Shown here in pieces: positions 34,661-57,509 of a stretch of 64,000 bases of DNA (its first letter is position 1; the number at the start of each line of letters is the position of its first letter). The translations under genes and the position numbers were made by a program. Source of the stretch: Sedimenticolaceae bacterium (GTDB lineage: Bacteria; Pseudomonadota; Gammaproteobacteria; Chromatiales; Chromatiaceae); contig JBNLDW010000002.1 of assembly GCA_050304615.1 (NCBI GenBank), positions 1,630 to 65,629 on the forward strand. The letters run 5' to 3'. A model generated the notes under the pieces. It was not told the DNA's origin. It ran no database searches and saw only the letters and a list, made by a program, of their open reading frames with translations.

Positions 34661-34740
34661 AGCCCTGGCTAGGGCTAATGCTTTGCCCAGGGGTAGAGAT
34701 ATGTGATACTTGCCTAATATCGGTCAGTGGTATTAGGCAA

Positions 34741-42513: not shown

Positions 42514-43510
42514 GAAAGTTAAGGAGCTAAAGCATCAACTCAAGGCTCAGAACAAAACTATTCGAGTGTTATCGGAACGGCTGGAACAACAGATATCCGA
42601 CGATATTACCGGATTTGCGCTGTTTGAACAGAATATTTCATTAGAAAACGTTGTTTCTGCACGCACCCAAGAGCTAGAACGCACCCTGTCAGAACTAAAG
42701 GCAGCCCAGGCAGAACTGCTTCATGCGCAAAAGCAACAGGCCATTGGCCAGTTAGCATCAGGCATAGCACACGAGATCAACACACCGATCCAATACGTGG
42801 GAGATAATATAAAGTTTTTAACTGACTCTTTTGACGAACTACTCCAAACCATAATGTCATGTAAAAGTATGGCTACAGAAGGGAATGATACTGAAGATAT
42901 GGATTACCTTATAAAAGAGGTGCCTCGAGCCCTTAAAGAGAGCGCAGAGGGGGTTGCATATATAGCCAGCATTGTTAGCGCAATGAAGGAGTTCGCCCAT
43001 CCCAGCGGCGATGCTATGCAGCAGATAGATATACATCAACTTATTCAGACAACCATTGCAATATCTCGTAACGAATGGAAACACTCCGCAAATCTAGAGA
43101 CCAATTTCGACCCGGAGCTACCGCCAGTCGATGGCCTTAAGGATGAGCTAGGCCAGGTCTTGCTTAATCTTATAGTAAACGCCGCTCACGCCATTGAAGA
43201 TAACAAAGAGCTGGGTGAGTCGGAGGGGATGATCCGCATCACCACCAGACGTGATAGTGACTGGATCGAAATCCAGGTTGAAGATAACGGTTGCGGCATA
43301 CCAGAGGCACTACGCCAAAAGATATTTGAGCCTTTCTTTACTACCAAAGATGTTGGGCGTGGCTCTGGACAGGGGTTAGCTATCGTGTACAGCATAGTAA
43401 CTGACAAGCATCACGGAAAACTGAGCGTTCAATCAGAACAGGGGAAAGGTTCTATTTTCATTGTGCGCGTGCCTTTGGTAAACACAAAAGCTGAGGCCGC
43501 CTCGCATTAA
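42506..43510 (+). CDS. Cytoplasmic histidine kinase (coiled coil + HisKA-like + HATPase_c)
   Basis: H-box GIAHEINTPIQY, N-box LLNLIVNAAHAI, G1 VEDNGCGIP, G2 GSGQGLAI. The start overlaps the FIST stop (ATGAGTGA). Confidence 0.85.
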   Translation: MSEKVKELKHQLKAQNKTIRVLSERLEQQISDDITGFALFEQNISLENVVSARTQELERTLSELKAAQAELLHAQKQQAIGQLASGIAHEINTPIQYVGDNIKFLTDSFDELLQTIMSCKSMATEGNDTEDMDYLIKEVPRALKESAEGVAYIASIVSAMKEFAHPSGDAMQQIDIHQLIQTTIAISRNEWKHSANLETNFDPELPPVDGLKDELGQVLLNLIVNAAHAIEDNKELGESEGMIRITTRRDSDWIEIQVEDNGCGIPEALRQKIFEPFFTTKDVGRGSGQGLAIVYSIVTDKHHGKLSVQSEQGKGSIFIVRVPLVNTKAEAASH

Positions 43511-43882
43511 AGCAATTAAAAGAGGTTATTTTAATACCCTAGCAAAGCCTTTTTCCTATACAGTCAAAGCCCCCCTAGTCAAGAAGATGCGTCCACACAA
43601 TCGCCCCGGGTGACCGTACTTCTTTAGTGCGCGAAAAAATGGCTAGAGGCCAGCACAATTTAGCGACAATAGTACAGAGCGCGCCCCTTCAGTACACGTG
43701 AATGTTTTGCTGGAGAGGGATGAAAACGGCTTGAATCATGCCTATACTCAGGATGTATATATGGAAGCACGATCGGCAGCTTGATCAAACCTAACGTTAG
43801 GGACGCCATTCTACTTCCGCTCAATCCAAATCACTAGCGAGGCCATGTGTTACTAAATGAAGGCAGTTACAGTAGTACAGGA

Positions 43883-45520: not shown

Positions 45521-46214
45521 TAAACTGAAAGAAGCTAAATTATGCCTGACCCCGGCCTTCGCCATGGTCTCCCATGACATTAAAAACTCCCTCGGTATTT
45601 TACTGAAGCATATCGGCGCGATCTCGGAACAGTGCAATGTTGAGGTGGGCGGCATAAAGCAAGAGTGCGCAAACATGGAGTATGAGGTCAGACGCATTAA
45701 CAGTAATCTGGTAAAGATGCTTACCCTATTTAAGGTCGAAGAAGGTAACTACATGCTAAATGTTGACGCCCATTCCATGAGCGAGTTTCTCGAAGAAAGC
45801 ATGCTGGAACATGGTGATCTTGCCAAGCAAAAAGGGATTGGTTATGAGATTGATTGTAGTGAAGAGCTGTATTGGTATTTTGACCGAAACCTGATGAGCG
45901 GAGTGGTGAGCAACGCCATCAACAACGCCATGCGTTACACCAATGATTGGCTGAGGATTTCGGCACAAACCACGAATGAGGGACTAGCAATTACCGTAGA
46001 GGATAACGGCGATGGCTTTCCCAAATCGATGCTAGAAAAACAGGGAGAGTTTTTTCGTCCAGAATCTGGGTTTCTCAATAACAATACCGGCCTTGGTCTC
46101 TATTTCACGCAGGTGGTGCTAGATCTTCACCAGCACGATGACAAACAGGGAAAGGTGACGCTCTCCAACGGAGGAGTACTGGGGGGCGGTAGTTGCAGTA
46201 TCCTGCTACCGTGA
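45510..46214 (+). CDS. Sensor-less histidine kinase-like protein
   Basis: H-box MVSHDIKNSL, N-box VSNAINNAMRY, VEDNGDGFP, NTGLGLYF. TTG start after aaaggag, overlapping the upstream stop. An alternative ATG is at 45564. Confidence 0.7.
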   Translation: MQNNKLKEAKLCLTPAFAMVSHDIKNSLGILLKHIGAISEQCNVEVGGIKQECANMEYEVRRINSNLVKMLTLFKVEEGNYMLNVDAHSMSEFLEESMLEHGDLAKQKGIGYEIDCSEELYWYFDRNLMSGVVSNAINNAMRYTNDWLRISAQTTNEGLAITVEDNGDGFPKSMLEKQGEFFRPESGFLNNNTGLGLYFTQVVLDLHQHDDKQGKVTLSNGGVLGGGSCSILLP

Positions 46215-46366: not shown

Positions 46367-46876
46367 CTAAACCCCACCCCCCCGGTGTACTATTTCATAA
46401 TAGAGCTTCTCCAACTCTGTTTTGTGCTGGGTCTCTTCGTCAGCCAGAAAGCTGAATAGATCCTTGATCGGGCCAGGACTGGTTGACTCTGCCAGGGCAC
46501 GGTACTGCTCCATGGCGATCTGTTCGCGCCCCAAGGCATACTGCAACACCGCCTGATCATCTACCGTATCTCCCAGTTCAGGTAGCTGAATCGCATCGGA
46601 AAAGTGGCTGTCACTGGCCGGGGTCTCGACCAACCCCTTGAGCTGCTCCTCAAGGTCAGGACGGGCGCGGAGCTCGGTAAACAACGTAAAGTGGCGCTGC
46701 TCCTCCTCCGCTAGCTCTTCCGCTAGGTAACGCATCTGTTTGTTTACCTGCGGTGCCAGAGCAACATAAAAGTCGCGGGCGGTACGCTCAAACTCAATAG
46801 CCACCTCCAAGATCTCGGCCAGAGTTTTCTTGGACCGCAGCTTGTTGTAACCATTGGATGCGCCTTCATCGCTCAT
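46367..46876 (-). CDS. Ferritin-like / rubrerythrin-like di-iron-type four-helix protein
   Basis: Two E...E..H-type segments: AIEFERTARDFY...EEEQRH and ALGREQIAMEQY...DEETQH. Lies 11 nt after the preceding gene. Confidence 0.6.
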   Translation of the reverse strand: MSDEGASNGYNKLRSKKTLAEILEVAIEFERTARDFYVALAPQVNKQMRYLAEELAEEEQRHFTLFTELRARPDLEEQLKGLVETPASDSHFSDAIQLPELGDTVDDQAVLQYALGREQIAMEQYRALAESTSPGPIKDLFSFLADEETQHKTELEKLYYEIVHRGGGV

Positions 46877-46887
46877 GCCGTACCCTC

Positions 46888-48684
46888 CTACTTTCTGTTT
46901 CGGCCACTCAGGTAGCTATCGATACTGGCTGCTGTCCGGTGACCGTCCGCCACCGCATGGACCACATCCGGACCCTTGACGCAATCACCGGCCGCCCATA
47001 ACCATGGCTCTGAGGTGCGCCCGTCACCGTCTACCGTAATACGGCCCCGGTTCCACTCCAGTTTTTCCGTCAGCTCTTCACCCAGCAGACCTACGTCAGA
47101 CATCTGGCCGATGGCCTCGATCACCATGTCACCGGCGTGGAACTGCTCATCGGTTTCATCGTAACTAGGCGCGAACTGGCCCTGCTCATCAAAGATAGAC
47201 TTTACATGCCAGGTTATCAGTCCGGTGACCCTGCCGTCCTCAATGGTTATCTGCTGTGGTCCGCGGGCATCCAGGATCTTAATACCTTCCTCCCCGCACT
47301 CCTTCACCTCTTCCGGATCTGCCAGGAAGTGAGCGAAGTCTTCCAGCGCGGTAACCGTAAGCTTGACCTCGCCGTGCTGCTGTTGCTGCAACCGTGCCAT
47401 ACTGCGGGCGATGTCCATGGCCACGTTACCGCCACCGATCACCACTATTTGGCGAGGTGCCTCGATGGGCTCTCCATCGGTGATGGCGCGCAATAGATCC
47501 ACCGACTTGGGAACATCTTTGTGCTCCGAACCAGGTATCCTGGTGGAACGTCCCAGGTGCAAACCGATAGAGAGTAGCACCGCATCGTACTCTTGGCGCA
47601 ACTGGTCAATGGAGACATCCACACCAACTTGGCTGTTGCAGTGGATCTCCACACCCATGGCGCGGATGACATCTACATCACGGTCGATCATATCGTAAGG
47701 CAGACGGTATTCAGGAATACCGTAACGGGTCATACCGCCGGGGTGTGCCCGCGCCTCATGCACCACCACCTTATGGCCTTTCCGCGCCAGATCGTAGGCG
47801 GTGGTCAGGCCTGCAGGCCCGGCGCCGATGATGGCAATCCTCTTGCCTGTAGCCGGGGCAGGAGCACCAACGATCTCATTGTATTGTTCGTAGGGCACCT
47901 GGTCGGTAATGTGTCGTTTGAGCCAGCGGATGGCGAGCGGATCACCCTCGTGATGCACGGCGCAGACGGTCTCACACTTGTGGGTACATACCCGTCCGCA
48001 CACCTCGGAGAATGGATTGGTCTCGTACAGCAGTTCCAGTCCGTGCTGGTAGTCGCCATCACGCACCGCGGCGATGTAATCGGGGATCGACATATGGGCT
48101 GGGCAGGTGGCAATACAGAGACCACAGGAGACGCAACGGTCCGCCTCAAGCTGGGCCTGCTCCACCGAGTAGCCATGCACGATCTCGTCGAAGGAGCCGA
48201 TACGCACATCAGGCTCCAGTTCACCCATGTGCTCCCTAGTCATTGGAGTTAGGTGATAGCCATCAGGCCGTCTGTAGCCCAGCTTGGCATCGTCCCAAGA
48301 CTTCTTATCGACGCCGGGGATAAAACGGAAGACGTCGGGATCTGCATCCACCCACTTATACTCGTTGGACATGGTGAGCGAGCCGGTCATGCAGATATCC
48401 ACACACAGTGCACACCAGCAGCAACGGCCGTAATCGATACGGGGACGCAGGCCGGAGTCACCCTGCTCCGTTGGAATCCCATCCACCGGCACCATATCAA
48501 TAGCCGCATTCTGACAGATCGCCTCACAGCTGCCGCAACCGATGCACTTATCAACATCGTTCTGGTGGAAGCCACGATAGCGCGCGGCGCCAGGACGCTC
48601 ATTTAGCGGATCGCGGATGGTAACCGGATCGCGAAATAGATTCTTCCACGCGGTAAAGGGTGAGAGGACGTCGCGTATACTCAT
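46888..48684 (-). CDS. Fusion of a NuoI/MbxN-like 2x[4Fe-4S] ferredoxin with a GltD/SudA-like FAD/NAD(P)H oxidoreductase
   Basis: N-terminus has CIGCGSCEAIC and CCWCALCVDIC. Then CVSCGLCIATCP...TNPFSEVCGRVCTHKCETVC, IAIIGAGPAGL (FAD) and VIGGGNVAMD (NAD(P)H). Confidence 0.85.
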   Translation of the reverse strand: MSIRDVLSPFTAWKNLFRDPVTIRDPLNERPGAARYRGFHQNDVDKCIGCGSCEAICQNAAIDMVPVDGIPTEQGDSGLRPRIDYGRCCWCALCVDICMTGSLTMSNEYKWVDADPDVFRFIPGVDKKSWDDAKLGYRRPDGYHLTPMTREHMGELEPDVRIGSFDEIVHGYSVEQAQLEADRCVSCGLCIATCPAHMSIPDYIAAVRDGDYQHGLELLYETNPFSEVCGRVCTHKCETVCAVHHEGDPLAIRWLKRHITDQVPYEQYNEIVGAPAPATGKRIAIIGAGPAGLTTAYDLARKGHKVVVHEARAHPGGMTRYGIPEYRLPYDMIDRDVDVIRAMGVEIHCNSQVGVDVSIDQLRQEYDAVLLSIGLHLGRSTRIPGSEHKDVPKSVDLLRAITDGEPIEAPRQIVVIGGGNVAMDIARSMARLQQQQHGEVKLTVTALEDFAHFLADPEEVKECGEEGIKILDARGPQQITIEDGRVTGLITWHVKSIFDEQGQFAPSYDETDEQFHAGDMVIEAIGQMSDVGLLGEELTEKLEWNRGRITVDGDGRTSEPWLWAAGDCVKGPDVVHAVADGHRTAASIDSYLSGRNRK

Positions 48685-48686
48685 GC

Positions 48687-49862
48687 CTACCTCTCAATCT
48701 CTGGTGGATAGGTGTGCAGTGAAACCATCAGCGCAGCCACATCAGAGATATTTACGTTGACGATCAGCCGCTCCAACAAGGCCATGGCATGGGTGTATGA
48801 TGGTCCACGCACGTTGACTCGACGCGGATAGCCGCTGCCATCGGTAACCAGATAGTAGCCGTATTCGCCGCGTGAGCACTCGCCACGGATATAGGTCTCG
48901 CCACGCGGGATCTTCCAGTGCAACACATTGGGGATCTTGGCCATCAATGGCCCCTCGTTAGGCATCTTGGCCAGTATCTGCCGTATCAGATCTACCGACA
49001 TCAGTAGATCGCGACGGCGCACATCGGCCCGCGCATATACATCCGACTCGGTTGCCACCACCGGCTCAAACTCCAGTTCTGGATAGACCAGATAGGGCTG
49101 ATCCTTGCGCACATCCTTGGCTACGCCGGCGGCACGAGCGACGGGGCCGGTAACACCGTAGGAATCGATCAGTTGCGGATCGACATAACCGAGACCGACA
49201 GTACGCTTCTTAAACACGGCGTTGCAGTACATCACCTCATAGACATCCTTGAGGGTACTCTCGATCTCCTGCAGGGTCTTCTCCATACGTTTTGCAAAGC
49301 CCTGCGGCAGGCCGTCGCGCACCCCGCCAGGAAGAATGAACATATGGTAGATGCGCGCACCGGTCAGCTCTTCGAAACGATCCAGCATCAGATCACGCAC
49401 ATATGTTGTCCACTGACCAATCACACCCTGACCTAAGGCACCAGCCTGACCACCAAGGTACATCAGATAGCTGTTGACCCGTCCCATCTCCAGGATGAGC
49501 GTGCGTATCCAGTCGGCGCGCTCGGGCGACTTGATCCCCGCCAGTTCCTCCACCGCCGCAGCATAGCAGTACTCATTGAAATCCGGCTCCGGCACACAGA
49601 CGCGACAGACTATGGGGAAACACTGGATGAAGGTACGCCGCTCCATCAATTTTTCGAAGCCGCGGTGCAGGTAGCCAACGTGGGTCTTACCTGCGACCAC
49701 TTCATCGCCACAGACGGTAAGCTCCAGTGACATGTTACCGGTGATGCCAGGGTGTTGTGGTCCCTGCCACAGTTTTAGGTATTTGCCCGACGTCAAATCT
49801 ATATCAAGGCTGCCATCAGCCTTTTTCTGCGGGTATTGATTACGTTCCGGTTGATACGTCAT
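48687..49862 (-). CDS. NuoD / [NiFe]-hydrogenase large-subunit-like protein (MbxL-like) lacking C-terminal Ni-Fe ligands
   Basis: GPQHPG..G...L.L...G..V......VGYLHRGFEKL.E. Contains CRVC where hydrogenases have CGxC, and a C-terminus ...SLHTYPPEIER with no Cys. Start trimmed to 49862. Confidence 0.85.
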   Translation of the reverse strand: MTYQPERNQYPQKKADGSLDIDLTSGKYLKLWQGPQHPGITGNMSLELTVCGDEVVAGKTHVGYLHRGFEKLMERRTFIQCFPIVCRVCVPEPDFNEYCYAAAVEELAGIKSPERADWIRTLILEMGRVNSYLMYLGGQAGALGQGVIGQWTTYVRDLMLDRFEELTGARIYHMFILPGGVRDGLPQGFAKRMEKTLQEIESTLKDVYEVMYCNAVFKKRTVGLGYVDPQLIDSYGVTGPVARAAGVAKDVRKDQPYLVYPELEFEPVVATESDVYARADVRRRDLLMSVDLIRQILAKMPNEGPLMAKIPNVLHWKIPRGETYIRGECSRGEYGYYLVTDGSGYPRRVNVRGPSYTHAMALLERLIVNVNISDVAALMVSLHTYPPEIER

Positions 49863-49863
49863 G

Positions 49864-50397
49864 TTATGCACCATCCGGATAGAGTTGTTCTTGCATGTAC
49901 TCCGCCGGATCTTTGCTCTCCCGGCCAGGCCGGTGACCATATGTCTCCTCGGAGTACTTCAAGGTATCGAAGTCACGGCGGTAGGGTGGAATGTCATTCC
50001 AGCCTTCAAGGATGAACTCTTCATCCACCCCGGGGCTATCGGGAAAGTCGATACCAAACATCTCGCGCAATTCGCGTTGATAGGTGGCAGCGGTTGGCCA
50101 GATATCGTGGATACTCTCCATAGTGGCGCTGTCACGAGACAGCATCACCCGCAGGCCAATATCCCGGCCACCCTCCCTGTTGGAGAGCAGATAGGTCAAC
50201 TGAAACTGACCATCTTCAATCCAGTCCACGGCGGTCAATAGAACTAGGTGGCTGTACCCCTCTTGGTCACGCAGATGCAGCAGTAACGAACGCAGCTGTG
50301 CCTGCGCTACGGTAATAAAGGCAAGATCGTCCCGCTGCTCGGTTAGTTCACCGAGTTGAAATCGATCCTTTAGCTGTCTATAGAGTGTTTGCATCAT
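49864..50397 (-). CDS. NuoC (30 kDa)-like subunit (MbxK-like)
   Basis: ...W..A..YQRELREMFGI.F...P... pattern. 177 aa. Confidence 0.75.
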   Translation of the reverse strand: MMQTLYRQLKDRFQLGELTEQRDDLAFITVAQAQLRSLLLHLRDQEGYSHLVLLTAVDWIEDGQFQLTYLLSNREGGRDIGLRVMLSRDSATMESIHDIWPTAATYQRELREMFGIDFPDSPGVDEEFILEGWNDIPPYRRDFDTLKYSEETYGHRPGRESKDPAEYMQEQLYPDGA

Positions 50398-50416: not shown

Positions 50417-51058
50417 TCACCAGTTATAATCCGGCATATCCCAATCGTGAATTACCTTTTTTTGGTTCGCCTTGTACCAGTCGAATTCCTCGGCATATTT
50501 ATTGGCACCTTCGCCCTTGCCTGCCCGGATGATCTTCTTCAAATCTTCAAACCCAGCCAGCAACGCCTCGGGGCGCGGCATACAACCGGCGATGTATAGA
50601 TCTACCGGCAGGTAGTCGTCCAGCCGCTTGATGGTGTTGTAGGCGTCCCAGTACATCCCGCCGTTGATGGTGCAAGAGCCAAGGCCAATTACATATTTCG
50701 GGCCCTGCATCTGTTCATAAGAGCGGATCGCCCGCTTCAGCGTCTTCACCGAGAGATAGCCGGAGATGATAAACAGGTTCGCCTGACGCGGGGTTGGGCG
50801 CCACTGCACACCAAAGCGATAGGCATCAAAGCGCGGCGTCATCAATGGGCGCATCTCAATAGCGCCACAGCCGGTACCAAATCCGAGGATCCAGAGAGAT
50901 TCGGAGCGGGCCCAGTTGAACAGCTGCTCAACGATCTTCTGATAGGCGGCAGGCTGCACCGTAGGCGGTGCCTCGCAGTAATAGTCCCGTAGCGGTTCGA
51001 CCTCAAACTCGATCCCGTCGGGCCCTTTTACGATACGTTTTTCAAGCTCTTCTTTCAT
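50417..51058 (-). CDS. NuoB (20 kDa, PSST)-like subunit (MbxJ-like)
   Basis: SLWILGFGTGCGAIEM, PRQANLFIISG, LGSCTINGG, IAGCMPRPE. Start trimmed to 51058. Confidence 0.85.
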   Translation of the reverse strand: MKEELEKRIVKGPDGIEFEVEPLRDYYCEAPPTVQPAAYQKIVEQLFNWARSESLWILGFGTGCGAIEMRPLMTPRFDAYRFGVQWRPTPRQANLFIISGYLSVKTLKRAIRSYEQMQGPKYVIGLGSCTINGGMYWDAYNTIKRLDDYLPVDLYIAGCMPRPEALLAGFEDLKKIIRAGKGEGANKYAEEFDWYKANQKKVIHDWDMPDYNW

Positions 51059-51062
51059 AACC

Positions 51063-51968
51063 TTACACCAGCACGATAGAGACAATGCCCAACGGCACTG
51101 CCCAGATCAAAAACCAACGGATCGACTGCTCCACCCTAAAGCGTGGAAATGCCACACCGACAAACAGCGAGACCATGTAGATCAGAAATACCTTGAGGAA
51201 AAATAGCGGCCAACTCGTCGCCCCACCAAAAAACAGATTCATATAGATCACAATCTTAGCGATGGGGAAGATCACCCGGTTGGTCTGCATCAGCGCCAGA
51301 TAGGAGGAGTGATACTCGGTGGGCGGTCCAATAGGAATCTCCTGGGGCGCCAATACCACATCGAAGGGCGGACGCATCATAGAGCCGAGGAACGACAGCA
51401 TCGCTGCGGCCACCGCAAAGGGGTTGGTAAACAGTGTCCAGTTGAGCATACCGCCCTGCTGCGCAGCCACGATCTCGGTGATGGAGAGGGTCTGGTACTG
51501 CAGCGCCACCGAAAAGATCGCGAGGGCAAAGGGCAGTTCGGCTGCAGTCGTCTGTGATAGACCACGACTTACACCTATGGCCGCATAGGGATGGCCACTC
51601 TCACCCGCCCCCAGCGCCATACCCAATGCACCAAAAAATACGAAATAGAGGGCCAGGATCAGGTCGCCGGCAAAGGAGAGGTTAGAGAACATCTCAGAGC
51701 CGTAGATAGTAGGCACAAACAGCAGCAGACCGACACCACCGGTCAACCGAAAGACCGGGCCGAGGTAGAACATCACACCGTGGGTAATAGAGCTGCGCAG
51801 TGCATAATTCTTTATCAGATCGATGTAGTTTTGATAGATCGGTATACCATGTCGGCGCCCTACCCTCGCCCCAATCTTTTGCATCAGCGCAGCCAGCAAC
51901 AGCCCGAAGTTGATCACAATGAACAGGGTCAGAAGCGAATAGGGAATCTTGATCCACTCAAATTGCAT
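51063..51968 (-). CDS. NuoH / MbxM / HycD-like membrane subunit
   Basis: Eight hydrophobic segments, PFDVV.AP.EI..GP.TEY.S, PRFRVEQ. Start trimmed to 51968. Confidence 0.8.
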   Translation of the reverse strand: MQFEWIKIPYSLLTLFIVINFGLLLAALMQKIGARVGRRHGIPIYQNYIDLIKNYALRSSITHGVMFYLGPVFRLTGGVGLLLFVPTIYGSEMFSNLSFAGDLILALYFVFFGALGMALGAGESGHPYAAIGVSRGLSQTTAAELPFALAIFSVALQYQTLSITEIVAAQQGGMLNWTLFTNPFAVAAAMLSFLGSMMRPPFDVVLAPQEIPIGPPTEYHSSYLALMQTNRVIFPIAKIVIYMNLFFGGATSWPLFFLKVFLIYMVSLFVGVAFPRFRVEQSIRWFLIWAVPLGIVSIVLV

Positions 51969-51970
51969 CA

Positions 51971-54900
51971 CTAGAACCCCACCTTTAGTAGATACACCAC
52001 AACCACAAAGGCCAGCAGGTGAACGGCATAGGTCTGGCCATTGCCACAATAAAGCCGCCGCAACACATCGGAGAGACTATGCAGAAAATCGGTCTGCGCC
52101 TCCCAGAAACGGGTGACCAAAGGCTGAGTGAGAAAACCCAGCGCCTTGCGATAGGGGGCGAAGAAGTTCCAGGCAAAGTGGGTGGTCTCCGGACGGAATG
52201 GCCGCTCGGCAGCATAGACAATATTGAACTGTTTCACCCGCTGCGCCTTGCGGTTAACAAACAGCAACCAGGCCAGCAAGGTAGCGAAGATCACACCGAC
52301 CACCAGCATGATAGAGACGGGACTCCAGTAGCCGAAGTCGCTAGTGATGGTAAGCCCCTCCCAATTGAGCGCACCTTCCGGAAAAAAGCGGCTTAGATAG
52401 CCGTCCACATGGCGCAGCACCAGACCAGGAACCACTGCCACCACCATAAGTATGGCGACGTAGATCATCTGCGGTAGCACCAGCCAGAAAGGCGCCTCTT
52501 TCACCCGCCGGTGTTCATCCTTCATCTGCCCGAGAAACACGGTATGAATCAGCCGGAATAGATAGAGGAAGGCGATAGGCCCGGAGAGAAAAATAACAAT
52601 CATCGGCAGCCGGTACTCGGCAGTCATGATGGCGTTGTAGAAGATCCAACGCCCACCAAAACCAGACAGTGGCGGTACACCGGAAACTGCAATGATACCG
52701 ATCAGGACAGCAATAAAAGAGAGCGGCATCAGGGTGATCAAACCACCCATGCGGTACATGTCACGAGTACCGGTACGCTTGGCTATACCGCCTACAGAGA
52801 GAAACAGCATCGACTTGTATACATAGTGGTTGATCACGAACATCAACGCCATCAACCAGCCGAGATGATTCATCATGGCCAACCCGAACAGGGCGTACCC
52901 CATCTGACCAATAGAGGAGTAGGCAAGCAACCGCTTGGCATCCTCTTGAAAGATCGCCAGCAGATTACCAATCAGCGCCGACAGGGCACCGACCCAGAGC
53001 ATCAGGTGGGTGAGCTCTACCCCATAGAACTCCTGCTTGCGCATATTCATCAGCAATACGAACAGCCCAAACAAGCCCGCCTTGAGCAGGATACCGGATA
53101 CCATGGGTGAGACATCCGTCTCCGCCTCGCTGTGGGCACCAGGCAGCCAGATATGGAAGCCGATGGCGGCAGTCTTGGTCATAAAACCAATGGCAAGCAG
53201 TAGGAAGACCCAACCCGCCAGCGGCTGCGCCACCTGGCTAAGCGCCTGCAGAGGAAAATCCATAACGCCCTGGCTGGCCAGGCCAAATCCCGCCAGAATC
53301 AACATGGCCCCACCGAGAGAGAAAACACTGTAAGAGAGCGCGTGCGGTTCGGAGTGTTTGCCCCGCAAGATCAGAAAATAGGAGCCTACTGTCAATAACT
53401 CCCAGGCGGCAAAGAAGGTGAAGGAGTCAACCGCGGTAACAAGCATGGCTAGACCTGCGTACATAAGCATGGCCGAAGGATAGAAACCGACCCTGCGACC
53501 ATGCGCGGAGTAGCTTGCCAGCAGAATCAGCGCGCCCCCGAGGAGGATAACGGCACCAAATATAACCTGCAATGGATCGTATCCGGGGTAGCAAACAACA
53601 AACCATGCGACCATCCCGACAATAGCTATGGTGTTCTTAACCCAAGCCGGCAACCACTCTATCAGCAGAAAGCCCAAGGCAAACAACAGCGGCAACGCAT
53701 GTAGCAGATTACCGTGGCTGGAGAGACCGCCCCACAGATAGGCCGCTACCCAGCCTGCCAGTACAGCCACATAGACCACATCCACCTTCTGCGGGAGACG
53801 CGCCGCCGGCTCTCCTGTTTGATCCCGCTTGATGATATAGCCAAACCAACGGAACAGATAACCGGCCTCGAGCAGCGTACCAAACAGGATAAGTCCAAGC
53901 AGCGCGATGCGGTCATTGGACGCAAGGATATGGACCAGATCCCACTTGGCATAGAAGCCGGGAAATGGGGGCAGCCCAATCAACATGGCGATAAAGGTGA
54001 CAAAGGCGAAGATGAGCAACGGACGGCCGCGCAAGACGCTCCATGCGGTCAACTCACGCTCAAACACCAACCCAGAGAGCCAGAACAGCCCAGCCTTGGA
54101 TATGGCATGGGCCACCAGAATACCGCCGGCGATAAACAGATAACTATCACCGAGAATTTCGCGCTGACCCAATATCGTCAACACCAAACCTATCTGTGCA
54201 ATTGAAGAGTAGCCTAGCAGACGCCGGTCATTGGTTTGTGACAGGGCAAACAGGTTGGCGCCAACGAAGCTGACAATACCGATACCAGTCGCCACCGGTA
54301 GCCACTGTGCACCACCGATTAGCAACAGTTTATCCACCGCAAACAGGGCCGCAGATGCCGAGGCTGCTGAGAGTATGGCGGAAAGTGCTGGATGGGCCGA
54401 CTCGTAGATATCCAGTACCCAGCCATTCGCTGGAAATGGTTTGATCTCGGCGATAATGGCGATGAACATCAGGAAAAAGACTAGAGCCCCATCCTTAAAC
54501 AGATCCTGGTGCGCAGCGGCCATGCCATCTATATTCAGGGTGCCGGTCGCGTGATAGGAGAAGATGATGCCAATCAACAGCAGCATCGCAATCACCTGCG
54601 ACGCAATCATATATTTGAAACCGGCACTCAGTGCCTGTCTGGCCAAGGAGAGCAAGACTAGGCCACCGGTAGCGATCACCGTCAACTCAAAGAATACAAA
54701 CAGGTTGAACATATCGCGGGTAAGAACAATGCCGCACAGGGCCATAGCAAAGACAAGCAGCACCGCCATGGCGCGCCGCCCCAGCTTTAACATAGTCTCC
54801 TTCAGGTGAAACGCCGAGAGCAGTGCAGTCATACTAATTAGCAGGATCAGTACCGCTTCGGCTAATCCCATACGCAGATTGATCGCAAAAGGCGGTGCGG

Positions 54901-55096
54901 TACCAGCAGTAAAGATATCAACGGTGGTGGCGCCGCCCCAAGCCAGAGATGAGACACTGCTTGCCGCCATCCAGCTCATCGAGGTGAGGGCCGCCAACAT
55001 CACCCAATAGGAGATGGCCCGCCACTCGTCCCGCAACAGACCAAGCAGAAATGCCGCGCCTAATCCGACCGCTATGAAGTAAATGGCACTCACCAT
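51971..55096 (-). CDS. Fused double antiporter-like subunit (two NuoL/M/N-MrpD-type modules; MbxH+H'-like)
   Basis: 1041 aa with two Proton_antipo_M-like cores. The first contains ...EIKPFPANGWVLDIYESAHPALSAILSA. The second contains ...KTAAIGFHIWLPGAHSEAETDVSPMVSGILLKAG. Confidence 0.8.
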   Translation of the reverse strand: MVSAIYFIAVGLGAAFLLGLLRDEWRAISYWVMLAALTSMSWMAASSVSSLAWGGATTVDIFTAGTAPPFAINLRMGLAEAVLILLISMTALLSAFHLKETMLKLGRRAMAVLLVFAMALCGIVLTRDMFNLFVFFELTVIATGGLVLLSLARQALSAGFKYMIASQVIAMLLLIGIIFSYHATGTLNIDGMAAAHQDLFKDGALVFFLMFIAIIAEIKPFPANGWVLDIYESAHPALSAILSAASASAALFAVDKLLLIGGAQWLPVATGIGIVSFVGANLFALSQTNDRRLLGYSSIAQIGLVLTILGQREILGDSYLFIAGGILVAHAISKAGLFWLSGLVFERELTAWSVLRGRPLLIFAFVTFIAMLIGLPPFPGFYAKWDLVHILASNDRIALLGLILFGTLLEAGYLFRWFGYIIKRDQTGEPAARLPQKVDVVYVAVLAGWVAAYLWGGLSSHGNLLHALPLLFALGFLLIEWLPAWVKNTIAIVGMVAWFVVCYPGYDPLQVIFGAVILLGGALILLASYSAHGRRVGFYPSAMLMYAGLAMLVTAVDSFTFFAAWELLTVGSYFLILRGKHSEPHALSYSVFSLGGAMLILAGFGLASQGVMDFPLQALSQVAQPLAGWVFLLLAIGFMTKTAAIGFHIWLPGAHSEAETDVSPMVSGILLKAGLFGLFVLLMNMRKQEFYGVELTHLMLWVGALSALIGNLLAIFQEDAKRLLAYSSIGQMGYALFGLAMMNHLGWLMALMFVINHYVYKSMLFLSVGGIAKRTGTRDMYRMGGLITLMPLSFIAVLIGIIAVSGVPPLSGFGGRWIFYNAIMTAEYRLPMIVIFLSGPIAFLYLFRLIHTVFLGQMKDEHRRVKEAPFWLVLPQMIYVAILMVVAVVPGLVLRHVDGYLSRFFPEGALNWEGLTITSDFGYWSPVSIMLVVGVIFATLLAWLLFVNRKAQRVKQFNIVYAAERPFRPETTHFAWNFFAPYRKALGFLTQPLVTRFWEAQTDFLHSLSDVLRRLYCGNGQTYAVHLLAFVVVVYLLKVGF

Positions 55097-55449
55097 TTCA
55101 GCTCCGTATACTTCGCAATATCTAGGCTGCCCTTGGTCTCATATAGCTTGTAGACAAAGGCAAGCATCAGCGCCGTCGTACCTACGCCGATAACGATGGC
55201 GGTAAGCACCAGCGCCTGCGGGACCGGATCGATGATGCGGGTTACCGCCTCAGATACCGGGACCGCCGCATCCAGGATTGGTGCGGTACGGCCACGCATG
55301 TACCCCACGGAGACCAGAACCAGGTTGACCCCAGCGTTGGCCACAGTAAAAGAGACAATCATGCGTAAAATATTACTATTGGAGAGCGCACCGTATATGC
55401 CGATAAGGATCAGGATAAAGCCGGTTGCCATAGAAATATGCGCAATCAT
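55090..55449 (-). CDS. MrpC/MnhC (NuoK-like) subunit
   Basis: 119 aa, 3 TM segments, DPVPQALVLTAIVIG. Confidence 0.8.
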   Translation of the reverse strand: MIAHISMATGFILILIGIYGALSNSNILRMIVSFTVANAGVNLVLVSVGYMRGRTAPILDAAVPVSEAVTRIIDPVPQALVLTAIVIGVGTTALMLAFVYKLYETKGSLDIAKYTELKW

Positions 55450-56144
55450 GATCCCTCCGCTTCTGAAAGATCGACTAACATGGAGCTAAATTCAGCGCCC
55501 ACCTTAAGACCGATAAAGGAGTAGATTACGGGCATGGCACCGGCGGAAAACAGTTCGCCTAGAGTGCCGATAGGTAGAATTCTGTTGTCCAGAAAACCGG
55601 ATGCGAAAAAGATACCGAGCACACCGATAGTGACAAAGACCAATCCAGAAATAGACTCGAGCACATAGATCAGGCGGTGACTGAAATGTCGTAGCGGATT
55701 AGTCAATAATAGCAATAGAGTCGCCGACGCCAGGATGGCACCACCCTGAAAACCACCGCCCGGGGTTAGGTGACCATTGACGAAGATGTAGACACCGAGC
55801 AACATAATCAACGGCACCAGAATGCGCGTGCCTGTGGTCAGTAGTTCGCCCACCGGCGTGAGCTGGCGTTTTACCGCCCCGCGCCTGCGACCTCTGGCCA
55901 GAACCAAGCCGACGATGGCGGCAGAGAGAAACAGTACCGTTACCTCTCCCAGGGTATCAAGGCCGCGGTAAGTGACGATGATGGCGGTAACAATATTGGC
56001 CGCTCCCAGGTCGGTTGCAGTGTGCTCGGCATAGTAGCGGCCTGTGAGGTTCAGCTCCGCATCTGGCTGGTAGCCAGTTAGTAAATGCCAGAAGGCGGCG
56101 CCAAGCACCAACACCAGCAGCAGGAGTATAAAACGCTTAATCAA
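55446..56144 (-). CDS. MrpB/MnhB-domain subunit
   Basis: GAANIVTAIIVTYRGLDTLGEVTV. Probable TTG start at 56144 overlapping the upstream stop. The ORF-track ATG is at 56198. Confidence 0.75.
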   Translation of the reverse strand: MIKRFILLLLVLVLGAAFWHLLTGYQPDAELNLTGRYYAEHTATDLGAANIVTAIIVTYRGLDTLGEVTVLFLSAAIVGLVLARGRRRGAVKRQLTPVGELLTTGTRILVPLIMLLGVYIFVNGHLTPGGGFQGGAILASATLLLLLTNPLRHFSHRLIYVLESISGLVFVTIGVLGIFFASGFLDNRILPIGTLGELFSAGAMPVIYSFIGLKVGAEFSSMLVDLSEAEGS

Positions 56145-56415
56145 GCTCGTTTTCCTCGTTATTATGTTCGTGCATGCCGCGCACGCGACCGAGTACAAAG
56201 AAGAATAGGAATGTGGTCAAACCGCTGCCGATGGCGGCCTCGGTCATCGCCACGTCTGGCGCAGCCAGGATAACGAACAACACCGAGGCGAAGAGAGTTA
56301 CCAGTCCGCCTGCCAGTATGGCCACCGATAGGCCCTTGGTGCGAATAGCCACCAGGGCCACGACTATCGTAGCCAGCGCCAACAACATGGTCATGACGGT
56401 GATCATACTGCTCAT
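56137..56415 (-). CDS. DUF4040 (MbhD / MrpA C-terminal-like) subunit
   Basis: 92 aa, 3 TM segments, APDVAMTEAAIGSGL hallmark. Confidence 0.7.
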   Translation of the reverse strand: MSSMITVMTMLLALATIVVALVAIRTKGLSVAILAGGLVTLFASVLFVILAAPDVAMTEAAIGSGLTTFLFFFVLGRVRGMHEHNNEENELD

Positions 56416-56759
56416 TGCGGTGGTTCTCCGCTGTCCTCTGCCAAATGGTCCACTATGGTCAGATCACACTTCTTGGTGCCAATGCGATGTGCAGCACGCG
56501 CCAATACGTGTGACGACAGCGGGTTAGTAGACAGAACAAATAGCGCAATCAACAGCAGCTTAGGCCACCACTCAAGTTGCAGGCAAGCGAGACCTATCAA
56601 GGTCAACAAGGTGCCGAGGGTGGTGGTCTTGGTGGCGGCCTGGATGCGGTTGAATACATCTGGCATGCGCACCAGCCCCACACCACCTAAAAACAGAAAC
56701 ACGGCTCCGAATAACAACAATAGTCCACCAAATAAATTAAGAGGGGTATCGGCAAACAT
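56412..56759 (-). CDS. MrpG/MnhG subunit
   Basis: GLVRMPDVFNRIQAATKTTTLG. Confidence 0.8.
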   Translation of the reverse strand: MFADTPLNLFGGLLLLFGAVFLFLGGVGLVRMPDVFNRIQAATKTTTLGTLLTLIGLACLQLEWWPKLLLIALFVLSTNPLSSHVLARAAHRIGTKKCDLTIVDHLAEDSGEPPQ

Positions 56760-57019
56760 TACAGCCCCCGCTCCAGATAGCGCGCCACGGCGATGACGCC
56801 AAGAAAGGAGAGAAATGCATAGACCAACGCCACATCAAGATAGATATTACGACCCTCGACCAAGGCCACCAGGATAATGCCAATGACTGAGAGGATGGTA
56901 AGCACGTCGAATGCCACCACCCGGTCCGGCGCCGTTGGACCGGTAAAAAAGCGCCACAGGGCAAGCAGGAAGGAAACTCCAGCCAGCGTAGCCGACAGGA
57001 AAACCAGCGCATCAACCAT
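56759..57019 (-). CDS. MrpF/MnhF subunit
   Basis: 86 aa, ...RFFTGPTAPDRVVAFD. Confidence 0.75.
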   Translation of the reverse strand: MVDALVFLSATLAGVSFLLALWRFFTGPTAPDRVVAFDVLTILSVIGIILVALVEGRNIYLDVALVYAFLSFLGVIAVARYLERGL

Positions 57020-57509
57020 ACATCACCTCAAGATAGCGCTCGAAACCGGCAACGATGGTAGCCGTTGCAACCTCAACATCATCTGATTCAACAGTTACCC
57101 AGTGGACGTAGAGCCATTCATCAATTAACTCAATGGTCAGCGTGCCCGGTGTCATGGTGATCGCATTGGCCAACAACTCCCGCCCCACTGGACTCTTAAG
57201 CTTGGTGCGTACCTTGACGATACCAGGATTCACCGGCAAAGATGGCGATATTATAATCGCGGCCATCCGCAGGTTTGATACAATCAATTCTTTGAAGAAA
57301 TAGAAAACGAAGATCACCGCGGCGCCTATGGCGCGAGGCGTGGCATTGAAGCCAGAGAGGACACTAATGCCGCGTTTATAAACCAGCGCAATCAGAAAAG
57401 AGGTGATAGCACCCACTATTAGTACATCAGGGGCCAAAGAAGCATTTAGCAGCAGCCAAAACAGGAGCAGGACTACGAACAACCGAATGAAATGTCGCGT
57501 TTTCTGCAT
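57012..57509 (-). CDS. MrpE/MnhE subunit
   Basis: 165 aa. N-terminal TM pair, ...WLLLN.S......VG, MTPGTL. Confidence 0.7.
   Translation of the reverse strand: MQKTRHFIRLFVVLLLFWLLLNASLAPDVLIVGAITSFLIALVYKRGISVLSGFNATPRAIGAAVIFVFYFFKELIVSNLRMAAIIISPSLPVNPGIVKVRTKLKSPVGRELLANAITMTPGTLTIELIDEWLYVHWVTVESDDVEVATATIVAGFERYLEVMYG

What the first reader, a model, noticed from the sequence alone, without database searches (positions are those of the whole stretch)
46888..48684. NuoI/MbxN-like di-cluster ferredoxin fused to a GltD/SudA-like NAD(P)H oxidoreductase
The first ~110 aa carry CIGCGSCEAIC and CCWCALCVDIC, the position and style of NuoI/MbhN. The rest is a complete GltD-type module: CVSCGLCIATCP...VCGRVCTHKCETVC, a GAGPAGL FAD fold and a GGGNVAMD NAD(P)H fold. 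A single polypeptide would therefore wire a pyridine-nucleotide site directly into the Fe-S chain of the membrane complex. That replaces both the NuoEFG input module of complex I and the ferredoxin-docking role of MbhN/MbxN.
Basis: partly seen in the sequence, partly recalled or inferred. Interest (0 to 1): 0.78.

Follow-up and report, generated by a model that had tools for sequence, protein, structure and literature searches.

The report
NADH-binding flavoprotein fused to MbsN/NuoI subunit
The gene is real and encodes a NuoI-type iron-sulfur subunit fused to an NADH-binding flavoprotein at the end of a 13-gene membrane "Mbx/MBS-like" operon, but this arrangement is widespread, already described in the literature, and still has no measured activity.

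Summary
A 598-aa ORF on the minus strand (46888-48684) carries a NuoI/MbsN-type 2x[4Fe-4S] module. It is fused to a complete GltD/NfnB-type module with 2x[4Fe-4S], an FAD fold and an NAD(P)H fold. It is not a frameshift or assembly artefact. Full-length orthologues sit directly after the NuoD-like gene of the same 13-gene Mrp-linked operon in more than 50 species. The family also includes Thermotogota, Spirochaetota and WOR-3, and all 16 cluster cysteines are invariant.

The architecture is already known. NCBIfam NF010590 (PRK13984) models the whole fusion. Degli Esposti 2015 described Thermotoga and proteobacterial mbx-like operons whose NuoI is a gltD-related flavoprotein, followed by rubrerythrin.

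New details from this work:
- The closest solved relative of the partner subunits is Pyrococcus MBS. The NuoB-like protein has the MBS-type three-cysteine proximal cluster, and the NuoD-like protein lacks the quinone His/Tyr.
- The NADPH-specifying YRR motif is replaced by ALE, which predicts NADH.
- A relative fuses the diiron protein onto the same polypeptide.

Most likely function: the built-in NAD(H) entry/exit module of an ion-translocating MBS-type oxidoreductase. Its substrate is untested and may be sulfane sulfur.

The parts
46888..48684 (-). The finding: a 598-aa fusion protein at the 'N' subunit position of the complex, NuoI/MbsN module + linker + GltD/NfnB-type Fe-S flavoprotein
   Evidence: ORF. 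Pfam and NCBIfam matches. Full-length orthologues.
48310..48684 (-). NuoI/MbsN-type module (aa 1-125). Two [4Fe-4S] motifs: C47/50/53/57 and C88/91/94/98. There is an extra Cys89.
   Evidence: NuoI NCBIfam models match aa 6-123. The best PDB match is the MBS subunit 6u8y_N, 7.5e-22, aa 7-110. The cysteines are invariant in 52 sequences.
47896..48201 (-). Fer4_20 domain (aa 162-263). Two further [4Fe-4S] motifs: C184/187/190/194 and C229/233/237/241.
   Evidence: Pfam PF14691, 9e-28. All eight Cys are invariant, also in relatives at 37-50% identity.
46954..47841 (-). FAD and NAD(H) Rossmann domains (aa 282-577). FAD fold GAGPAGL at 287-293, nucleotide fold GGGNVAMD at 417-424. A446-L447-E448 sits in place of the NADPH-binding YRR.
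   Evidence: Pfam PF07992, 1.3e-27. Alignment to Stn/Nfn chains. YRR role from PMC7596348. Conservation. Foldseek matches to 5jca_L and 4ylf_B.
46367..46876 (-). Last gene of the operon: a 169-aa ferritin-like diiron protein (Pfam Rubrerythrin) with no rubredoxin domain and no cysteine
   Evidence: PF02915, 1.6e-12. E59, H62, E118, E148 and H151 are invariant. It follows the fusion gene in about 45 loci. It is fused to it in P0121. Nearest structures are 2fzf and TM1526 1vjx.
48687..49940 (-). NuoD/MbsL-like subunit. The true start is probably an internal Met near 49862-49874, because the listed ORF overlaps the NuoC-like gene.
   Evidence: PF00346, 5e-61. 6u8y_L, 3.2e-93. T67 and V116 stand at Nqo4 H38/Y87. 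C115 corresponds to MbsL C85, and Y411 stands at MbsL C385.
49864..50397 (-). NuoC/MbsK-like subunit
   Evidence: PF00329, 7.9e-25.
50417..51085 (-). NuoB/MbsJ-like subunit carrying the proximal [4Fe-4S] with only three Cys ligands (C73, C138, C168)
   Evidence: 6u8y_J, 1e-64, gap-free alignment. MbsJ C25 corresponds to G70. The second Cys of the complex-I tandem CC corresponds to G74. These positions are invariant in 42 sequences.
51063..52049 (-). NuoH/MbsM-like membrane anchor
   Evidence: PF00146, 4e-44.
51971..55096 (-). 1041-aa protein made of two antiporter-like (MrpD/NuoN-NuoM type) halves, corresponding to MbsH + MbsH' fused
   Evidence: PF00361 in two stretches. The N-half matches PRK08377 and the C-half PRK08668. 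The two halves are separate genes of 479 and 620 aa in L065.
55090..55449 (-). NuoK/MrpC-like subunit
   Evidence: PF00420, 1.4e-22.
55446..56198 (-). MnhB/MbhE-like subunit
   Evidence: PF04039 and PF20501.
56137..56415 (-). MbhD-like small membrane subunit (92-aa ORF)
   Evidence: ORF. tblastn finds it at the same position in 33 related loci. A PF13244 MbhD gene sits at this position in L065.
56412..56759 (-). MrpG/MnhG-like subunit
   Evidence: PF03334, 3e-26.
56759..57019 (-). MrpF/MnhF-like subunit (86 aa)
   Evidence: ORF. Conserved in 41 loci. A PF04066 gene sits at this position in L065.
57012..57509 (-). MrpE/MnhE-like subunit, first gene of the operon
   Evidence: ORF. Conserved at the 5' end of the cluster in about 40 loci. 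PF01899 in L065.

Best explanation
The gene encodes the 'N' subunit of a 13-gene, Mrp-linked member of the complex I / membrane-bound hydrogenase superfamily. The nearest characterised relative is the Pyrococcus MBS (formerly Mbx) complex.

The usual small two-cluster NuoI/MbsN ferredoxin-like subunit is covalently extended by an NfnB/GltD-type module with two more [4Fe-4S] clusters, FAD and a nicotinamide site. Electrons are proposed to pass NAD(H) <-> FAD <-> two GltD-type clusters <-> two NuoI-type clusters <-> the proximal cluster on the NuoB-like subunit. Substrate turnover there is coupled to H+/Na+ movement by the Mrp-type membrane arm. No diffusible ferredoxin and no NuoEFG module would be needed.

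Shown: the domain set, intact ligands, conservation, operon position and MBS-type catalytic-site features.

Inferred:
(a) NADH rather than NADPH is the cofactor in this lineage, because ALE replaces YRR.
(b) The substrate at the three-cysteine proximal cluster is not quinone. By analogy with MBS it is sulfane sulfur/polysulfide.
(c) NADH lies only about 50-60 mV below polysulfide, so the reaction would run close to equilibrium. It could work either as NADH-driven sulfur reduction that conserves a little energy, or in reverse as ion-gradient-driven NAD+ reduction in sulfur-oxidising hosts.
(d) The downstream diiron protein is a bound partner of the flavoprotein, probably removing O2 or H2O2.
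For: Architecture and intact cofactor sites.

One ORF placed directly after the NuoD-like gene, in a syntenic 13-gene operon, in more than 50 species of Alpha-, Beta- and Gammaproteobacteria and in Cloacimonadota. Relatives at 37-50% identity occur in Thermosipho, Spirochaetaceae and WOR-3.

No separate NuoI gene and no NuoEFG genes in the operon.

The partner subunits are closest to MBS: 6u8y_L 3e-93, 6u8y_J 1e-64, 6u8y_N 7.5e-22.

The NuoB-like protein has exactly three cluster cysteines. It aligns without gaps to MbsJ, whose three-Cys proximal cluster is the proposed catalytic site.

The NuoD-like protein lacks Nqo4 H38/Y87 and the NiFe cysteine set.

The YRR motif that binds the 2'-phosphate in NfnB, and that marks NADP(H)-specific DsrL-2, is A446-L447-E448 here. 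It is invariant among the proteobacterial sequences.

A NuoI-GltD-rubrerythrin triple fusion is the last gene of the same operon in two independent assemblies.

In T. maritima, mbxA is induced 4.4-fold by S0.
Against: No activity of this complex has been measured in any organism, as far as the searched literature shows.

The AlphaFold model is unreliable for the NuoI module (pLDDT below 50 for aa 5-128). The contact between the two halves, and the cluster spacing, are therefore not supported by any structure.

Many hosts (Rhodoferax, Dechloromonas, Paracoccaceae, Hyphomicrobiales) are not classical sulfur reducers or sulfur-storing bacteria.

A driving force of 50-60 mV looks small for a membrane arm with two antiporter-like pumps.

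Sulfide or polysulfide oxidation at an Fe-S cluster (the reverse direction) has no precedent.

The published reading of these operons is ferredoxin:NAD(P)+ oxidoreductase.
Confidence: 0.55

Rival explanations
1. Ion-translocating ferredoxin:NAD(P)+ oxidoreductase, working like Rnf. This is the published reading. Reduced ferredoxin would donate to the Fe-S chain and the GltD-type flavin would reduce NAD(P)+. In reverse, the ion gradient would drive NADH-dependent ferredoxin reduction for N2 or CO2 fixation.
For: Degli Esposti 2015 states this for the Thermotoga and proteobacterial mbx-like operons. The Mesotoga study cites Schut 2013 for Mbx as an NADP:ferredoxin oxidoreductase. Many hosts are diazotrophs or autotrophs that need low-potential ferredoxin (taxa; their physiology is from general knowledge).
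Against: The Pyrococcus precedent was revised. The complex is a sulfane-sulfur reductase whose chemistry occurs at the proximal cluster.

A ferredoxin -> NuoI -> flavin route would bypass the NuoB/NuoD/NuoH chamber, where redox chemistry is coupled to ion movement. Yet that chamber's MBS-type features are strictly conserved.

The ferredoxin-facing end of the NuoI module is where the fused GltD module is expected to sit (inference).
Confidence: 0.17
2. Alternative NADH:quinone oxidoreductase: a complex I whose NuoEFG module is replaced by a single GltD-type flavoprotein, pumping ions while reducing ubiquinone or menaquinone.
For: Most hosts are respiratory proteobacteria. The MBS chamber opening is as wide as that of complex I. 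The large NADH-to-quinone potential drop would match a multi-pump membrane arm (general knowledge).
Against: The quinone head-group ligands Nqo4 H38 and Y87 are Thr and Val.

The proximal cluster lacks the tandem-Cys ligation of N2 and has the MBS three-Cys pattern.

The same complex, with the same fused subunit, occurs in Thermotogota, which are fermenters generally reported to lack respiratory quinones (the quinone statement is from general knowledge).
Confidence: 0.15
3. The flavoprotein mainly serves the diiron protein. NAD(P)H would reduce the rubrerythrin-like partner, giving an NADH peroxidase or oxidase, and the membrane complex would be secondary.
For: The diiron gene follows the fusion gene in about 45 loci and is fused to it in P0121. 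NCBIfam PRK12775 is another GltD-type protein with a ferritin domain. A C. difficile rubrerythrin-locus preprint that mentions gltD 56 times appeared; it was not read.
Against: The diiron gene is missing in the Cloacimonadota loci, which keep the fused subunit and the whole membrane operon. The NuoI module and the 11 membrane/peripheral-arm genes would be unexplained.
Confidence: 0.06
4. Frameshift or assembly artefact joining two separate genes.
For: None found.
Against: Fifty-one independent uninterrupted orthologues from different assemblies, including isolate genomes such as Thiothrix caldifontis DSM 21228, T. fructosivorans ATCC 49748 and Halochromatium roseum DSM 18859. A curated full-length NCBIfam model exists.
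Confidence: 0.01

Closest known systems
'mbx-like' operons of Thermotoga and proteobacteria (Degli Esposti 2015, Genome Biol Evol, PMC4758237); protein family NCBIfam NF010590 / PRK13984 'putative oxidoreductase'
   Same: Same operon: Mrp genes, NuoH/B/C/D, a gltD-related flavoprotein in the NuoI position, and rubrerythrin last. The window protein matches the PRK13984 profile end to end. Thermosipho P0123 is 48% identical over the full length and scores above the model's cutoff.
   Different: The paper says NuoI is 'substituted'. In fact the NuoI module is retained and fused.

The window protein scores 905.5 bits, below the 946-bit cutoff, so NCBI names such proteins only 'FAD-dependent oxidoreductase'.

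The proposed function (ferredoxin:NAD(P)+) rests on a Pyrococcus model that has since been revised.
Pyrococcus furiosus MBS, membrane-bound sulfane sulfur reductase (PDB 6U8Y; PMC7684303)
   Same: Collinear 13-subunit layout. It is the best PDB match for the NuoD-, NuoB- and NuoI-like parts. It shares the three-Cys proximal cluster with the same loop length. The quinone His/Tyr and the MbhL catalytic Glu context are absent. The vestigial Cys85 equivalent is kept.
   Different: MbsN is a free 2x[4Fe-4S] subunit that takes electrons from ferredoxin. Here it carries a 470-aa NAD(H) flavoprotein extension. MbsH and MbsH' are fused here. MbsJ C25 is Gly and MbsL C385 is Tyr. A diiron protein gene is added. 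The hosts are mesophilic proteobacteria.
NfnB / NfnI-L / GltD / SudA family of Fe-S flavoproteins (PDB 4YLF_B, 5JCA_L, 6S6S)
   Same: Fer4_20 two-cluster domain plus FAD and NAD(P)H Rossmann domains. Sequence E-values are 1e-50 to 1e-65. Foldseek TM is 0.81-0.85 on the target.
   Different: No NfnA/SudB or GltB partner gene is present. The N-terminus carries a NuoI module. All eight Fe-S ligands are Cys. YRR is replaced by ALE, and a 'LQxQxxG' insertion follows the GGGNVAMD fold.
DsrL-1 of sulfur oxidisers (PMC7596348)
   Same: A GltD/NfnB-type Fe-S flavoprotein that lacks YRR, prefers NAD(H), is joined to an extra two-cluster ferredoxin domain, and links NAD(H) to a sulfur-converting Fe-S enzyme.
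   Different: In DsrL the ferredoxin domain is C-terminal and the partner is soluble rDsrAB. Here the ferredoxin module is N-terminal, of NuoI type, and the partner is a membrane complex.
Respiratory complex I (Nuo/Nqo)
   Same: Homologous NuoB, C, D, H, I, K and antiporter-like subunits.
   Different: No NuoEFG, NuoA or NuoJ genes in the operon. No quinone-binding His/Tyr. No tandem-Cys N2 ligation. The membrane arm is of Mrp type with MrpE/F/G/B-like subunits.

Membership tests
NCBIfam NF010590 (PRK13984) NuoI-GltD fusion oxidoreductase | End-to-end collinear match to the 611-position profile | tested here: met
   aa 1-595 against profile positions 6-609, E = 1.3e-272.
NCBIfam NF010590 (PRK13984) NuoI-GltD fusion oxidoreductase | Score at or above the curated equivalog cutoff of 946 bits | tested here: not met
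   905.5 bits. Proteobacterial relatives score 890-914, and Thermosipho scores 1194.7. The window protein is therefore a homologue outside the curated equivalog boundary.
NuoI / MbsN / MbhN subunit of the complex I superfamily | Two CxxCxxCxxxC [4Fe-4S] motifs in a ~100-aa module with a NuoI-type N-terminal segment | tested here: met
   C47/50/53/57 and C88/91/94/98 are invariant. NuoI models match aa 6-123. 6u8y_N, 7.5e-22.
NuoI / MbsN / MbhN subunit of the complex I superfamily | Encoded directly after the NuoD/L gene, as the only such subunit of the operon | tested here: met
GltD / NfnB / DPD-type Fe-S flavoprotein | Fer4_20 domain with ligands for two [4Fe-4S] clusters | tested here: met
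   PF14691, 9e-28. Eight invariant Cys.
GltD / NfnB / DPD-type Fe-S flavoprotein | FAD GxGxxG fold and second dinucleotide fold | tested here: met
   GAGPAGL at 287-293 and GGGNVAMD at 417-424, both invariant. Foldseek match to 5jca_L and 4ylf_B.
NADPH-specific subclass (NfnB, DsrL-2) | YRR motif binding the 2'-phosphate | tested here: not met
   A446-L447-E448 stand at that position. The role of the motif is given. The YRR-bearing sister subfamily includes Cloacimonadota and a Spirochaetaceae-containing cluster.
MBS-type membrane-bound sulfane sulfur reductase | Proximal [4Fe-4S] on the NuoB/MbsJ subunit with only three Cys ligands in the shortened loop | tested here: met
   C73, C138 and C168 only. 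Gap-free alignment to MbsJ. Invariant in 42 sequences. The criterion comes from PMC7684303.
MBS-type membrane-bound sulfane sulfur reductase | NuoD/MbsL without a full NiFe cysteine set and without the quinone His/Tyr | tested here: met
   T67 and V116. C115 is kept and Y411 stands at the C385 position.
MBS-type membrane-bound sulfane sulfur reductase | Free MbsN subunit taking electrons from ferredoxin | tested here: not met
   The subunit is fused to an NAD(H) flavoprotein.
MBS-type membrane-bound sulfane sulfur reductase | Polysulfide/DMTS reductase activity coupled to ion translocation | not testable with these tools
   Requires biochemistry.
Respiratory complex I (NADH:quinone oxidoreductase) | NuoEFG NADH-oxidising module | tested here: not met
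   No such genes in the operon here or in any related locus.
Respiratory complex I (NADH:quinone oxidoreductase) | Quinone head-group ligands (Nqo4 H38, Y87) and tandem-Cys ligation of cluster N2 | tested here: not met
   Thr and Val at the ligand positions. GC instead of CC.
Group 4 membrane-bound [NiFe] hydrogenase | Four Cys ligands of the NiFe site in the large subunit | tested here: not met
   The C-terminal motif is absent (Y411, no Cys). Only vestigial C112/C115 remain.
Canonical rubrerythrin (downstream gene) | Diiron four-helix bundle ligands E...ExxH...E...ExxH | tested here: met
   E59, H62, E118, E148 and H151 are invariant. PF02915, 1.6e-12.
Canonical rubrerythrin (downstream gene) | C-terminal rubredoxin-type Cys4 domain | tested here: not met
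   The 169-aa protein contains no cysteine (sequence). Its nearest structures are uncharacterised ferritin-like proteins, 2fzf and TM1526.

The most novel reading that the evidence does not exclude
In sulfur-oxidising and sulfur-storing proteobacteria this complex would be a reversible, ion-motive NADH:sulfane-sulfur oxidoreductase, that is, an MBS with a built-in NADH module. It would let cells respire stored sulfur with NADH under anoxia. In reverse, it would use the membrane potential to move electrons from sulfide/polysulfide directly onto NAD+, bypassing the quinone pool and reverse-running complex I. A more speculative variant: the NfnB-like flavin bifurcates, sending one electron to the bound diiron protein (O2/H2O2) and a low-potential electron into the Fe-S chain.
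Probability: 0.15. Interest if true: 0.8.

Novelty: already known. Interest (0 to 1): 0.33.

Why it matters
The fusion shows how a complex-I-type ion pump can be plugged straight into the pyridine-nucleotide pool with one flavoprotein, in place of the three-subunit NuoEFG module or a diffusible ferredoxin. The family is abundant in sulfur- and iron-oxidising, magnetotactic and symbiotic proteobacteria, yet no activity has been measured.

If the MBS-type catalytic site is functional, the complex could explain two things in chemolithotrophs: anaerobic reduction of stored sulfur, or cheap NADH generation.

For this window specifically, it is one more orthologue, 95% identical to a protein already in NCBI, of a gene cluster already drawn in a 2015 paper.

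Tried and rejected
- AlphaFold2 of the whole fusion. The GltD part is confident, but the NuoI module and linker have pLDDT below 50, so no statement on inter-module geometry or cluster spacing is possible. Foldseek therefore only recovers Nfn/GltD/DPD. Multi-chain docking on NuoB/NuoD cannot be run with these tools.
- A search for conserved neighbours outside the operon found none. The two-component/FIST genes at 41-46 kb and ileS/lspA are not linked to the operon elsewhere. No flanking ORF family recurs in more than 5 of about 55 loci. There are thus no context clues to the substrate.
- A compositional sign of recent transfer was not found. The operon's GC of 0.52-0.56 equals that of the neighbouring ileS/ribF/murJ genes.
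- The terminator/promoter scan downstream of the last gene was uninformative. It gave one weak hit, at the chance level.
- The exact-sequence look-up of the window protein found nothing on record, so the source organism is not identified. The closest genome is a Gammaproteobacteria MAG at 84%, and an unnamed NCBI protein is 95% identical.
- Literature searches for a biochemical or structural study of the fused complex, or for any paper linking Mbx/MBS to Thiothrix, Sedimenticola, Thiodiazotropha, Magnetococcus or Gallionella, found nothing. Wu et al. 2018 (PMC6204914) is not held. Schut et al. 2013 could not be read; its content is cited only through.
- The rest of the window holds housekeeping, RTX/T1SS and transporter genes, with no metabolic clue.
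Full report
OBSERVATION. The interval 46888-48684 is one ORF on the minus strand: 598 aa, ATG start, stop included. The plus strand of the same interval is closed by many stops. Pfam places Fer4_7 at aa 46-101, Fer4_20 at aa 162-263 (9e-28) and Pyr_redox_2 at aa 282-577 (1.3e-27). NuoI-specific NCBIfam models match aa 6-123. NF010590/PRK13984 'putative oxidoreductase' matches the protein end to end, 905.5 bits against a curated cutoff of 946. The ATG lies 2 nt after the stop of the NuoD-like gene and is preceded by GAGAGG.

NOT AN ARTEFACT. A search of about 5.8 billion proteins returned 6949 hits at E <= 1e-10. The best 120 are all ~600 aa, 71-95% identical and cover 98-100% of the query. They come from Kentron, Thiodiazotropha, Gallionella, Sideroxyarcus, Rhodoferax, Magnetospira, Magnetovibrio, Magnetococcales, Varunaivibrio, Thiohalocapsa and others.
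- In one-genome-per-species contigs, 64 loci encode a relative. About 50 of them show the full-length protein immediately after the NuoD-like gene of the same operon. These include the isolates Thiothrix caldifontis DSM 21228, T. fructosivorans ATCC 49748 and Halochromatium roseum DSM 18859.
- Fifty-one uninterrupted orthologous ORFs were extracted. All 16 cluster cysteines, the FAD fold and the GGGNVAMD fold are invariant.
- An exhaustive HMMER scan of 1.84 billion representatives found about 13 clusters at 37-50% identity with the same full-length architecture. Named members are Thermosipho melanesiensis, a Spirochaetaceae MAG and WOR-3.

CONTEXT. The gene is the twelfth of a 13-gene minus-strand operon. 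In order:
- MrpE-like (57012-57509)
- MrpF-like (56759-57019)
- MrpG-like (56412-56759)
- MbhD-like (56137-56415)
- MnhB/MbhE-like (55446-56198)
- NuoK/MrpC-like (55090-55449)
- a 1041-aa fusion of two antiporter-like subunits (51971-55096)
- NuoH-like (51063-52049)
- NuoB-like (50417-51085)
- NuoC-like (49864-50397)
- NuoD-like (48687-49940)
- the fusion (46888-48684)
- a 169-aa ferritin-like diiron protein (46367-46876)

The order is collinear with P. furiosus MbsA-N. There is no NuoEFG and no separate NuoI. Genes outside the operon are not conserved among relatives.

WHAT THE PARTNER SUBUNITS SAY. The closest solved structure for all three peripheral-arm homologues is the Pyrococcus MBS complex 6U8Y. 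The NuoD-like protein matches chain L at 3.2e-93, the NuoB-like protein matches chain J at 1e-64, and the NuoI module matches chain N at 7.5e-22.

The MBS paper (PMC7684303) defines the enzyme by two features. The first is a proximal [4Fe-4S] held by only three cysteines (MbsJ C28, C93, C123) in a shortened loop, which leaves one iron open for polysulfide reduction. The second is the absence of the quinone ligands Nqo4 H38/Y87.
- The window's NuoB-like protein aligns to MbsJ without a gap. It has exactly C73, C138 and C168. The non-ligating MbsJ C25 is Gly70, and the second Cys of the complex-I tandem pair is Gly74. These positions are invariant in 42 sequences.
- In the NuoD-like protein, H38 and Y87 correspond to T67 and V116. 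MbsL C85 is kept as C115. MbsL C385 is Y411.
- The catalytic site is therefore of MBS type. It is neither complex-I type nor hydrogenase type.

THE FLAVOPROTEIN MODULE. Residues ~150-596 match NfnB (4ylf_B, 3e-65), NfnI-L (5jca_L, 8e-64), GltD (6s6s_G, 4e-50) and the NfnB-like parts of Stn/NfnABC (8oh5_C, 9bov_A, 9n5u_A). The AlphaFold model of this part is confident. It superposes on 5jca_L and 4ylf_B with TM 0.81-0.85 normalised to the target.

In NfnB the 2'-phosphate of NADPH is held by Y310-R311-R312. DsrL-2 enzymes with YRR use NADP(H), and DsrL-1 enzymes without it use NAD(H) (PMC7596348). In the window protein these positions are A446-L447-E448, by alignment to 8oh5_C. E448 is found in 49 of 52 family members.

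Across the deep family there are two subtypes:
- An 'LE' type with a 'LQxQxYG' insertion after the dinucleotide fold: the window, Thermosipho, WOR-3 and others.
- A 'YRR' type without the insertion: Cloacimonadota, a cluster that includes a Spirochaetaceae MAG protein, and others.

I infer NADH specificity for the window protein. This is a prediction from an established motif rule, not a measurement.

THE DIIRON PROTEIN. The last gene has invariant E59/H62/E118/E148/H151. It has no cysteine and hence no rubredoxin domain. It resembles uncharacterised ferritin-like proteins (2fzf, TM1526 1vjx). It follows the fusion gene in about 45 loci but is absent in the two Cloacimonadota loci.

In P0121 (764 aa) it is fused to the C-terminus of the NuoI-GltD protein. 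That protein is the last gene of the same operon and is seen in two independent assemblies. This argues that it is a physical partner of the flavoprotein. Its role is inferred: probably O2/H2O2 removal next to an oxygen-sensitive Fe-S chain in microaerophiles, as Degli Esposti also suggested.

MECHANISM. Shown: one polypeptide combines an NAD(H)/FAD site with four [4Fe-4S] sites, and it occupies the place of the subunit that feeds the proximal cluster in MBS, MBH and complex I.

Inferred: electrons run NAD(H) <-> FAD <-> four clusters <-> the proximal three-Cys cluster, where a non-quinone substrate turns over, coupled to ion movement. By analogy with MBS I take sulfane sulfur as the most likely substrate. 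In T. maritima, which according to one search has the gltD-type subunit, mbxA rises 4.4-fold with S0.

Energetics rest on standard potentials from general knowledge. NADH (-320 mV) to polysulfide (about -260 mV) gives roughly 10-12 kJ per 2 e-. That is similar to the 12 kJ quoted for MBH and far below the 42 kJ of ferredoxin-driven MBS. The reaction would thus be near equilibrium and reversible. It could conserve a little energy during NADH-driven sulfur reduction. In sulfur oxidisers it could use the ion gradient to reduce NAD+ from sulfide/polysulfide. This last idea is speculative.

RIVALS.
- Ferredoxin:NAD(P)+ oxidoreductase, the published reading. It rests on the superseded Pyrococcus Mbx model, and its electron path would bypass the conserved coupling site.
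- NADH:quinone oxidoreductase. It fits the respiratory hosts, but it is contradicted by the missing His/Tyr, by the three-Cys cluster, and by the presence of the same complex in Thermotogota.
- A primary NADH:diiron (peroxidase) role. It leaves the membrane operon unexplained and fails in Cloacimonadota.

COMPARISON WITH WHAT IS KNOWN. The architecture is already known. [quoted passage not shown] NCBIfam holds a full-length model built on Thermotogota members.

Four points are not stated in the papers read here:
(i) NuoI is retained and fused rather than substituted.
(ii) The proteobacterial complexes keep the MBS-type three-Cys proximal cluster.
(iii) The family splits into YRR and non-YRR subtypes.
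(iv) The triple fusion with the diiron protein exists.

No paper in the searched library links MBS/Mbx to sulfur-oxidising bacteria or reports any activity.

VERDICT. The feature is real, well conserved and correctly read by the first stage, but it is an orthologue of an already described, uncharacterised family. Interest is modest for the finding itself (0.33). It would be higher only if the sulfur-linked or reverse-electron-flow reading proved true.

Noticed in passing
L065 10001-12295 and L066 10001-12295 (protein P0121): A 764-aa NuoI-GltD-rubrerythrin triple fusion is the last gene of an otherwise identical 13-gene operon. It is seen in two independent assemblies (GCA_054029235.1 and SRR33956859).
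   Followed up: partly
window 47341-47349 (aa 446-448) and the alignment: The fused-subunit family splits into two subtypes. One lacks the NADPH-binding YRR motif and carries a 'LQxQxYG' insertion: the window, Thermosipho, WOR-3. The other has YRR and no insertion: Cloacimonadota and a cluster that includes a Spirochaetaceae MAG protein. This suggests NADH- and NADPH-linked versions of the same complex.
   Followed up: partly
window 51971-55096 (-): The two antiporter-like subunits (MbsH and MbsH' equivalents) are fused into one 1041-aa polypeptide here and in most proteobacterial loci. They are separate genes of 479 and 620 aa in L065.
   Followed up: no
window 48418-48420 (Cys89 of the fusion protein): An extra cysteine next to the first ligand of the second NuoI-type cluster (the CC pair) is invariant in 52 proteobacterial and Cloacimonadota sequences. 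It is Ser in Thermosipho and two other distant members, so it is probably not a cluster ligand.
   Followed up: partly
window 49596-49607 (NuoD-like C112-R-V-C115): A CxxC pair sits at the vestigial NiFe site of the NuoD-like subunit. C115 equals MbsL C85. C112 is present in 24 of 26 sequences and is Pro in the other two. The C-terminal vestigial Cys is Tyr in those 24 and Cys in the other two.
   Followed up: partly
window 41395-46214 (+): A cluster of a 372-aa protein (unscanned; FIST-like by my reading), two histidine kinases and a response regulator with TPR-like repeats lies convergent with the operon. Its GC is lower (0.46 against 0.54). It is not found next to the operon in any related locus.
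   Followed up: partly
window 10414-18601 (-): A 1325-aa RTX-type calcium-binding repeat protein lies with its type I secretion genes (HlyD-like adaptor and HlyB-like ABC exporter).
   Followed up: no
window 28918-30434 (+): A pair of genes matches the UmpA/UmpB Na,Li,K/H+ antiporter subunits, both below the curated cutoffs.
   Followed up: no
window 33308-34660 (+): A MauG/MbnH-family di-haem enzyme is followed by a gene with a below-cutoff match to the transcriptional activator FtrB (34678-35427).
   Followed up: no
window 48687-49940 (-): The mechanical ORF of the NuoD-like gene overlaps the NuoC-like gene by 77 nt. Homology to MbsL begins at aa 55. The real start is probably the internal Met at about 49862-49874.
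   Followed up: no
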